A DNA stretch of 64,000 bases, taken from the IMG/VR virus record IMGVR_UViG_3300045988_081484. One strand, written 5' to 3'. This document shows positions 21,405 to 21,460 of the stretch, piece after piece. A program made the translations under genes and the position numbers. The stretch is from a virus. The notes beneath the pieces are model-generated. The model did no database searches, had not been told where the DNA came from, and saw only the letters and a list, made by a program, of their open reading frames with translations. The stretch's first letter is position 1. Each line of letters begins with the position of its first letter.

Positions 21405-21460
21405 CCTCGTTCTGCTCCGAGTTTCCGTTCGCGCAGGCTCACCAAATTTTTCTTTCAAAA
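21405..21460 (+). repeat. 56-nt GC-rich element, 55/56 identical to 46574..46629
   Basis: 'cctcgttctgctccgagtttccgttcgcgcaggctcaccaaatttttctttcaaaa'. Both copies follow a terminator and precede TAG-containing genes. Confidence 0.7.

What the first reader, a model, noticed from the sequence alone, without database searches (positions are those of the whole stretch)
21405..21460. Two copies of a 56-nt GC-rich element, each just after a terminator and ~100 nt upstream of TAG-containing genes
The copies at 21405..21460 and 46574..46629 are 55/56 identical and very GC-rich for this genome. One precedes the tail-fibre block and the other the 46707 gene and lysis-region genes. The placement suggests a late-promoter or activator-binding element, or a conserved RNA leader.
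Basis: seen in the sequence. Interest (0 to 1): 0.5.

Follow-up and report, generated by a model that had tools for sequence, protein, structure and literature searches.

The report
Conserved upstream promoter element, duplicated
A 56-base sequence that sits between a terminator and a promoter in front of a gut phage's lysis-region operon has been copied in front of its tail-fibre operon; it is most likely a binding site for a still unknown regulator that controls both operons, which makes it an ordinary kind of element in a previously undescribed form.

Summary
Two direct copies lie at 21405-21460 and 46574-46629. They are 55/56 identical, and no third copy exists in the window. Each copy starts 11-16 nt after a strong intrinsic terminator and ends 98 or 77 nt before an ATG.

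It is not an RNA leader. It lies upstream of the sigma-70-like promoters, does not fold, gives no consensus structure and has no Rfam match.

Comparative data show that the copy before gene 46707 (site B) is ancestral. Relatives keep it even where the downstream protein is only about 40% identical. These copies share an invariant core, TCCGA(G)TTT, plus an A.TTTT block, placed 76-79 nt from the -10 hexamer. The gene and terminator upstream of the element differ among relatives.

The copy before the tail-fibre block (site A) exists only in the window's clade. There the two copies are nearly identical. The sister clade has an unrelated GC-rich sequence at site A. The A copy is therefore secondary, most simply explained by ectopic copying or gene conversion.

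Genomes of about 147 kb carry at most two copies, so this is not the general late promoter.

Best reading (about 50%): a promoter-linked DNA site for an unidentified regulator. Two metagenome contigs join the repeats reciprocally, one as a 25-kb deletion and one as a circle-type junction. These may reflect real recombination or misassembly. Interest is modest.

The parts
21405..21460 (+). Copy A of the 56-nt element, upstream of the tail-fibre-like block. This is the secondary copy, found only in the window's clade.
   Evidence: It is present at this site in relatives 075249 and 093451. The sister clade has a different GC-rich sequence here.
46574..46629 (+). Copy B of the element, upstream of gene 46707 and the lysis-region genes. 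This is the ancestral site. At this site conservation extends about 5 nt further left (CTAG, 46570-46573).
   Evidence: Orthologues were found in the sister clade and in relatives with about 40% protein identity.
21415..21427 (+). Conserved core CTCCGAGTTTCCG in copy A.
   Evidence: TCCGA.TTT is invariant in all 16 aligned sequences (A5); coordinates.
46584..46596 (+). Conserved core CTCCGAGTTTTCG in copy B.
21443..21460 (+). A/T-rich 3' block CAAATTTTTCTTTCAAAA in copy A. A.TTTT is invariant; the part after TTTTT is replaced in the sister clade.
46612..46629 (+). A/T-rich 3' block in copy B. It lies at about -62 to -46 relative to the inferred transcription start and resembles an UP element.
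   Evidence: The resemblance to the UP-element consensus is from my own knowledge.
21366..21404 (+). Intrinsic terminator (12-bp stem plus T-run) ending the tRNA-Met unit, immediately before copy A.
46530..46568 (+). Intrinsic terminator (13-bp stem plus T-run) after the SPFH gene, immediately before copy B.
46639..46668 (+). Sigma-70-like promoter after copy B: TTGGAT, 18 nt, TGATATAAT with an extended -10.
   Evidence: It is a member of promoter repeat family D2 and is conserved in all B-site orthologues. The consensus scan did not call it, because the -35 matches only 3 of 6.
21481..21508 (+). Inferred promoter after copy A: GTGAAA, 16 nt, TTATAT. This assignment is uncertain; the alternative is TTGTCA at 21491 with TATAAA at 21512.
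   Evidence: Read from the sequence. It is conserved in relatives. The consensus scan did not call it.
21559..26026 (+). Tail-fibre-like gene block with in-frame TAG codons, downstream of copy A.
   Evidence: Mtd_N matches are weak; phrog_19976 'tail assembly'.
46707..47168 (+). Gene for a 153-aa protein of unknown function (1 TAG), always linked to copy B. It is followed by a small membrane-protein ORF, PhoH, a terminator and then two lysin genes.

Best explanation
The element is a double-stranded-DNA regulatory site that belongs to the promoter downstream of it. Its original place is before the operon that starts with gene 46707 (46707, a small membrane protein, PhoH, and by read-through the two lysins). 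There, a GC-rich core (CTCCGAGTTTYCG ... GGCyCA) and an A/T tract sit roughly 90 to 45 bp upstream of the transcription start of a sigma-70-type promoter. A sequence-specific protein, phage-encoded or from the host and not yet identified, is inferred to bind there and change how often host RNA polymerase starts at that promoter. The A/T tract could contribute as an UP-like or bending segment.

In the window's clade the same 56 bp were copied in front of the tail-fibre operon, about 9-10 bp further from the inferred -10. This would place tail-fibre and lysis-region genes under the same regulator.

Shown here: position, linkage, conservation, copy number, and absence of RNA structure. Inferred: that a protein binds, the sign of the regulation, and its timing.
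For: (1) The architecture terminator, element, promoter is seen at both copies.

(2) Fifteen orthologous B sites were recovered by protein-anchored look-ups, not by DNA pattern. They keep TCCGA(G)TTT and A.TTTT invariant even where the downstream protein is only 40-44% identical.

(3) The distance from the core to the -10 hexamer is 76-79 nt in all 15, although the sequence in between changes. At site A it is 87 nt.

(4) The upstream neighbour varies: short or long SPFH genes, a GIY-YIG endonuclease gene, other genes, and at least five different terminators. The element, promoter and gene stay together.

(5) Differences among copies cluster at positions 24-38 and 1-10, between two constant blocks.

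(6) Both copies have the same orientation relative to the downstream genes.

(7) RNA alternatives fail.

(8) Candidate winged-helix regulators are encoded in the window, for example 60078-60506, which matches TrmB/MarR families above the Pfam cut-off.
Against: No binding protein has been identified, and there are no expression data.

The element has no dyad or clear direct-repeat symmetry of the kind most regulator sites show.

The B promoter already looks competent (TTGGAT plus an extended -10) and resembles the window's other promoters, so it need not depend on an activator.

One relative (L201) has terminator and promoter with no element, so the element is dispensable.

Overall identity of the element between distant orthologues (59-86%) is about the same as that of the promoter region (62-90%), not higher.

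The 'one helical turn' offset at site A depends on an uncertain -10 call.

The constant spacing could partly be inheritance without indels.
Confidence: 0.5

Rival explanations
1. The element is itself a promoter for a phage-specific sigma factor or RNA polymerase. The two constant blocks (around GAGTTT and AAATTT, about 17-18 bp apart) would act as -35 and -10 equivalents, giving a second, late start site upstream of the sigma-70-like promoter.
For: There are two conserved blocks separated by a variable spacer of constant length. Orientation is fixed. The sharp 3' boundary lies near where a start site would fall. Both operons contain TAG-bearing, presumably late genes.
Against: There are only one or two copies per genome of about 147 kb, far fewer than the late operons such a phage needs. 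The sister clade has it at one site only. The blocks resemble no known sigma consensus I could recall. No sigma factor or RNA polymerase gene was found among the window proteins scanned. Relaxed two-block searches find no further sites in the window.
Confidence: 0.13
2. The element acts mainly as a patch of homology at a module boundary, a PeSL-like linker. Phage recombination exchanges upstream modules at it and can delete or circularise the 25-kb segment between the two copies. Any regulatory role would be secondary or absent.
For: Contig L156 joins the left flank of A to the right flank of B (window 20055-21460 joined to 46574-58714). Contig L160 joins the left flank of B to the right flank of A (44352-46629 joined to 21405-30485). 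Upstream modules differ among strains exactly at this boundary, and homing-endonuclease-like genes sit next to it. Genome OGGG01000034 carries an A copy of one lineage and a B copy of another. Several contigs end in or next to the element. A and B were homogenised in the window's clade. PeSL cassettes in T4-type phages behave this way (PMC2839356).
Against: The repeat is 56 nt, one more than the common maximum k of 55, so both junction contigs may be assembly chimeras. Each of those two assemblies has only one contig crossing the repeat. A pure homology patch would not need an invariant 9-10-nt core or a fixed distance to the -10 over deep divergence. In the sister clade there is only one copy, so nothing to recombine with. 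The deletion product would lack tail fibres and the suppressor tRNA.
Confidence: 0.17
3. The element works as RNA in transcripts that read through the upstream terminator, for example as a C-rich, unstructured Rho-loading (rut-like) site that backs up termination, or as a processing site.
For: On the sense strand it has 18 C against 9 G and is unstructured. It always lies directly after a terminator.
Against: It is only in the top 1-2% of C-over-G windows, and many coding windows are more extreme. rut sites do not require an invariant core or fixed spacing to a downstream promoter. It stays linked to the downstream unit, not to the upstream transcript. No structure or covariation was found.
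Confidence: 0.08
4. The site A copy is a neutral by-product of an ectopic gene-conversion or repair event and has no function there. Only the B copy is functional.
For: The A copy is limited to one clade. The sister clade's site A has an unrelated GC-rich sequence. The offset to the promoter differs from that at B.
Against: The A copy is retained with an intact core in at least three sublineages whose neighbouring AAA protein is only 82-83% identical. The sister clade's A and B regions share significant similarity in the promoter-proximal part (score 27 against 16.1 +/- 2.6; 2 of 1000 shuffles reached it). This suggests older common control of the two operons.
Confidence: 0.12

Closest known systems
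Upstream regulator sites of phage promoters read by host RNA polymerase, for example the phi29 p4 sites before late promoter A3 (PMC3100819)
   Same: A protein-sized DNA segment lies upstream of the -35 region of a phage promoter used by the host sigma-A/sigma-70 polymerase. It includes an A/T tract, is specific to particular operons, and controls structural or lysis genes.
   Different: p4 sites are inverted repeats (CTTTTT-N15-AAAATG). This element has no dyad. No cognate protein is known. The promoter after copy B has a usable -35 and an extended -10, so dependence on an activator is not evident.
UP element of strong sigma-70 promoters (consensus recalled from my own knowledge)
   Same: The 3' part, AAATTTTTCTTTCAAAA, is an A/T tract that resembles the UP consensus. 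At site B it lies at about -62 to -46.
   Different: The conserved GC-rich core cannot be an UP element. The tract sits about 5 bp (B) or about 15 bp (A) further upstream than a canonical UP element. Part of it is replaced in the sister clade.
PeSL promoter-terminator cassettes of T4-type phages (PMC2839356, PMC4122927)
   Same: It is an intergenic composite of a terminator stem-loop and a sigma-70-like promoter. It lies at boundaries where modules differ between relatives. Repeats of under 60 bp could recombine to give deletions and circles.
   Different: PeSLs occur in dozens per genome and flank small orphan genes. The repeated part of a PeSL is the promoter and stem-loop themselves. Here the repeated part is an extra segment between them, with at most two copies, and recombination is not proven.
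HK022 put and lambda nut sites (two similar cis elements per genome acting as RNA)
   Same: Two near-identical copies per genome, each in front of an operon.
   Different: Those sites lie downstream of promoters and act as structured or protein-bound RNA. This element is upstream of the promoters and has no structure.

Membership tests
Regulator-binding site upstream of a sigma-70-type promoter | Lies upstream of the -35 region at a constrained distance from the promoter | tested here: met
   The distance from TCCGA to the -10 hexamer is 76-79 nt in 15 B-site orthologues and 87 nt at site A.
Regulator-binding site upstream of a sigma-70-type promoter | Sequence conserved across diverged relatives and linked to the regulated promoter | tested here: met
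   The core is invariant in 16 sequences, including relatives with 40-44% protein identity. The upstream context varies.
Regulator-binding site upstream of a sigma-70-type promoter | Dyad or tandem-repeat symmetry typical of dimeric regulators | tested here: not met
   No conserved inverted or direct repeat was seen. The CTCG/CGAG arms are not kept in orthologues.
Regulator-binding site upstream of a sigma-70-type promoter | A cognate DNA-binding protein that binds the site | not testable with these tools
   There are only candidates: the wHTH protein at 60078-60506, and the 46707 product, whose fold has no significant PDB match.
UP element | A/T-rich tract at about -60 to -40 matching the UP consensus | tested here: inconclusive
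   The tract lies at about -62 to -46 (B) and about -71 to -55 (A). It is partly replaced in the sister clade.
Structured cis-acting RNA (leader, riboswitch, put/nut-like) | Lies within a transcript, downstream of a promoter | tested here: not met
   It lies between a terminator and the promoter at both sites and in all orthologues.
Structured cis-acting RNA (leader, riboswitch, put/nut-like) | Stable or conserved secondary structure, or a match to a known family | tested here: not met
   Fold z-scores are -0.38 to -0.53 on both strands. RNAalifold predicts 0 pairs. Rfam gives nothing for the element.
Late promoter for a phage sigma factor or RNA polymerase | Present before most or all late operons | tested here: not met
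   At most 2 copies occur in contigs of 133-148 kb and 1 in the sister clade. No relaxed matches were found in the window.
PeSL-type mobile regulatory cassette | Composite of a terminator stem-loop and a sigma-70 promoter at module junctions | tested here: met
PeSL-type mobile regulatory cassette | Many copies per genome flanking accessory genes | tested here: not met
   Two copies at most.
PeSL-type mobile regulatory cassette | Recombination between copies giving deletions and circles | tested here: inconclusive
   Reciprocal junction contigs L156 and L160 exist, but chimeric assembly across a 56-nt repeat cannot be excluded.
Transposable element (MITE) or site-specific recombination site | Terminal inverted repeats and target duplications, or a recombinase with inverted core sites | tested here: not met
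   There are no inverted ends and no duplicated flanks. No integrase or invertase was seen among the proteins scanned.

The most novel reading that the evidence does not exclude
The element is a dedicated junction site. It co-regulates the tail-fibre and lysis operons of a TAG-recoded gut phage, and it also serves as the crossover point at which upstream modules are swapped and the 25-kb segment between the copies is excised as a circle or deleted. That segment carries the tail fibres, the suppressor tRNA, other tRNAs and auxiliary genes. This would be a two-copy analogue of PeSL cassettes outside the T4 group.
Probability: 0.15. Interest if true: 0.6.

Novelty: new member of a known kind. Interest (0 to 1): 0.33.

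Why it matters
If a regulator does bind here, the element marks a small regulon, tail fibres plus the lysis region, in an uncultivated family of human-gut phages of about 147 kb that read TAG as sense. It also gives a defined 56-mer with a 10-nt invariant core for fishing out that regulator. It illustrates how a promoter-upstream site can be copied from one operon to another and so rewire control. If the junction contigs are real, it is also a natural deletion and circle-forming hotspot, which matters for assembling and interpreting these genomes. None of this overturns current understanding.

Tried and rejected
Rfam searches at gathering threshold and at E<=10 gave nothing for the element. 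The only nearby matches, all below their families' gathering scores, lie mainly upstream of the element over the terminator region.

Single-sequence folds of both strands were not better than shuffles. RNAalifold gave no pairs.

The GenBank phage collection gave no DNA match to the region or to 12 kb around copy B. The best protein relatives of the topoisomerase subunit are about 35% identical.

A scan of bacterial and archaeal genomes with a degenerate pattern gave no hit, so the element is not host-derived or att-like.

A tRNA or tmRNA 3'-end remnant was checked by hand and does not fit a T-arm and acceptor stem.

A small ORF across the element was rejected because 1-nt indels occur among orthologues.

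A sigma-54 -24/-12 motif was considered; the sister clade's site A has TGGCAA-N6-TTGCA, one base off the strict spacing, and the other sites lack it. Other motifs recalled from memory (CodY box, LexA/Cheo box, Spo0A box, sigma-B, ECF sigma, SPO1 promoters) gave no convincing fit.

Homology between the window element and the sister clade's site A sequence is not significant.

SPFH-anchored loci were mostly unrelated, GC-richer phages and were uninformative.

The rut-like composition is only moderately unusual.

The predicted structure of the 46707 protein is confident, but it has no significant PDB match.

Full report
**Observation.** The two copies are real. A search allowing three mismatches returns only 21405-21460 and 46574-46629, both on the + strand, and none of 100 dinucleotide-preserving shuffles gives a match. 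The repeat finder lists the pair as a two-member family at 98% identity. The single difference is C at 21425 versus T at 46594. The first 39 nt are 64% G+C against 36% for the window. Each copy starts 11-16 nt after a strong terminator-like hairpin with a T-run, at 21366-21394 and 46530-46558. Each ends 98 or 77 nt before an ATG. The sequences flanking the two copies are unrelated right up to the element's edges.

**Setting.** All genes in the window are on the + strand. The window carries 31 tRNA genes, one of them with a CTA (amber-suppressor) anticodon, plus a tmRNA gene. In-frame TAG codons occur only in some genes: 21559-26026, 46707-47168, 48747-51013 and 58248-59159. Copy A precedes tail-fibre-like genes, which have weak Mtd_N matches and a phrog 'tail' hit. 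Copy B precedes, in order: a 153-aa protein of unknown function, a small membrane-protein ORF, PhoH, a terminator, and two lysins (NAGPA/SPOR and lysozyme/amidase). No close relative exists among GenBank phages. Closely related metagenomic contigs are 133-148 kb long.

**Not an RNA element.** The 56-mer folds no better than shuffles on either strand (z = -0.38 to -0.53). The low-energy folds of the longer stretches come from the terminators. Rfam gives nothing for the element. An alignment of 16 copies and orthologues gives a consensus structure of 0 pairs. The element lies upstream of the promoters. After copy B comes TTGGAT, 18 nt, TGATATAAT (46639-46668), which is a member of the window's promoter repeat family and is conserved in every orthologue. 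After copy A I infer GTGAAA, 16 nt, TTATAT (21481-21508). That call is less certain.

**Copy number.** Exact and degenerate scans of the viral, metagenome and genome collections find at most two copies per contig, none in bacterial genomes, and no extra sites in the window. This rules out a general late promoter and a dispersed repeat.

**Comparative anatomy at site B.** Loci anchored on neighbouring proteins, not on the DNA pattern, show that site B is old.
- The sister clade (PhoH about 70% identical) has, before the homologue of gene 46707, CATCGTCGATCTCCGAGTTTCCGCGCACATAGGCCCAGCAAATTTTTC..., followed by TTGATT, 17 nt, TGCTATCAT.
- Relatives whose 153-aa protein is only 40-44% identical still have the element, for example GCTAGCCTCGTGTGGCTCCGAGTTTCCGTACATATGCCCCAGCAAATTTTTCTTGCAAAAT.
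- In the 16-sequence alignment, TCCGA.TTT and A.TTTT are invariant. Differences cluster at element positions 24-38 and 1-10.
- The distance from TCCGA to the -10 hexamer is 76-79 nt in all 15 B-site orthologues.
- The upstream neighbour differs: short or long SPFH genes, a GIY-YIG endonuclease gene, other genes, and at least five different terminators. The element, promoter and gene remain linked.
- One relative (L201) has terminator and promoter with no element.
- Overall identity of the element between distant orthologues is about that of the promoter region, not higher. The case for constraint therefore rests on the invariant core and the fixed spacing.

**Comparative anatomy at site A.** The A copy occurs only in the window's clade, including 075249 and 093451, whose AAA protein is 82-83% identical. 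At the same position the sister clade has another GC-rich sequence, GGACCGCGCTCGGTGCAAACGCAAAGTGGCTTTAGAATTTTTC..., present once per contig. It is not significantly similar to the element. The sister clade's A and B regions do share significant similarity over AATTTTTC...GGCAAA.TGATTT (score 27 against 16.1 +/- 2.6; 2 of 1000 shuffles reached it). In 084596 and 093451 the A copy is of the window type, while the B copy is a diverged form with 81% identity over the aligned 54 nt. Genome OGGG01000034 combines an A copy of one lineage with a B copy of another. The near-identity of A and B in the window therefore reflects a secondary copy or homogenisation event, most simply ectopic gene conversion, and not two independently conserved sites.

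**Recombination signals.** Contig OGPY01001342.1 (L156) joins window 20055-21460 to 46574-58714, which would be a 25-kb deletion. Contig OGPC01001942.1 (L160) joins 44352-46629 to 21405-30485, which is the junction expected from a circle or a tandem duplication. Several contigs end in or beside the element. Recombination between short intergenic cassettes, producing deletions and mini-circles, is documented for PeSLs in T4-type phages (PMC2839356). However, the repeat is 56 nt, just above a common maximum k of 55, and each of these two assemblies has only one contig crossing the repeat. Chimeric assembly is therefore an equally good explanation, and I leave the question open.

**Mechanism.** The best-supported reading is a promoter-linked DNA site for an unidentified sequence-specific protein. 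It would lie about 90 to 45 bp upstream of the start of a sigma-70-type promoter, with its A/T tract possibly acting as an UP-like or bending segment. The closest functional analogue is the set of p4 sites before phi29 promoter A3 (PMC3100819). The direction and timing of the regulation are unknown. The B promoter looks competent on its own. The 9-10-bp larger offset at site A, about one helical turn, depends on an uncertain -10 assignment. Candidate trans factors in the window include a TrmB/MarR-like winged-helix protein at 60078-60506. The 153-aa protein that always follows copy B has a confident predicted fold (pLDDT 91.5): an alpha-beta-beta-beta-alpha domain plus a long helical hairpin. 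It has no significant PDB match, so nothing ties it to DNA binding.

**Verdict.** It is a new example of a familiar kind of element, with an interesting evolutionary history and an unresolved hint of repeat-mediated rearrangement.

Noticed in passing
L156 (OGPY01001342.1) and L160 (OGPC01001942.1); window 21405-21460 and 46574-46629: Two metagenome contigs join the flanks of the two repeat copies reciprocally. One corresponds to deletion of the 25-kb segment between them. The other is the junction expected from a circle or tandem duplication. This is either real recombination or a chimera across a 56-nt repeat.
   Followed up: partly
window 10181-28613, especially 27479-27554: The window has 31 tRNA genes and a tmRNA (16753-17068). 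One tRNA has a CTA anticodon (amber suppressor; ARAGORN labels it Pyl). In-frame TAG codons are confined to the tail-fibre block, 46707, the two lysins and a GIY-YIG protein (8 TAGs at 58248-59159).
   Followed up: partly
window 1840-62572 (repeat families D1-D5, D7-D9): At least 16 copies of a long promoter-plus-leader consensus occur: TTGAAAA, about 17 nt, TGATATAAT, then ATTTATAGAAAGTTAAGGAAAGGAAG. The part after the -10 is conserved well beyond what a ribosome-binding site needs.
   Followed up: no
window 46707-47168 and 26380-26712: The 153-aa protein after copy B and a 110-aa protein after the tail-fibre block share an N-terminal domain (Y.GK..G.A...D..F....G..IA). The family is confined to this phage group. 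The AlphaFold model is confident (pLDDT 91.5), with only weak, non-significant similarity to dsRBD-like folds.
   Followed up: partly
window 21559-22410: The first tail-fibre ORF ends at 21816. A long open frame continues in the +2 frame without an ATG start and carries Mtd_N-like repeats. This could be a frameshift, a non-ATG start or a split gene.
   Followed up: no
window 19623-19739 and 19930-20014: Rfam calls two further tRNA-like genes that ARAGORN does not report. One is 117 nt long, suggesting an insertion or intron.
   Followed up: no
window 12-203: A cluster of four roughly 30-nt direct repeats (TTTCATAGTATT.TCAGAAATAC.ATGAAA) and a 39-nt inverted repeat lie at the window's start. 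They look like iterons.
   Followed up: no
window 48693-48747: The two lysin genes follow a terminator-like hairpin after PhoH, with no room for a promoter of their own. They would be expressed by read-through from the promoter after copy B.
   Followed up: no
L169/L170 2500-2850; L200 1566-2321: Relatives carry endonuclease-type genes inserted directly upstream of the B-site terminator and element, in place of or after the SPFH gene. L200 has a GIY-YIG/NUMOD gene; 084596 has a different, unannotated gene. This marks the junction as a hotspot of mosaicism.
   Followed up: partly
L175/L176/L186 versus L184 and others, about codon 20 of the 46707 homologue: An in-frame TAG in some sister-clade genomes aligns with TGG (Trp) in others, not with a Gln codon.
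   Followed up: no
window 12374-12413 and 21165-21204: A 40-nt repeat (83% identical) lies immediately upstream of two tRNA genes, tRNA-Glu(CTC) and tRNA-Met. It may be a shared tRNA leader or processing signal.
   Followed up: no
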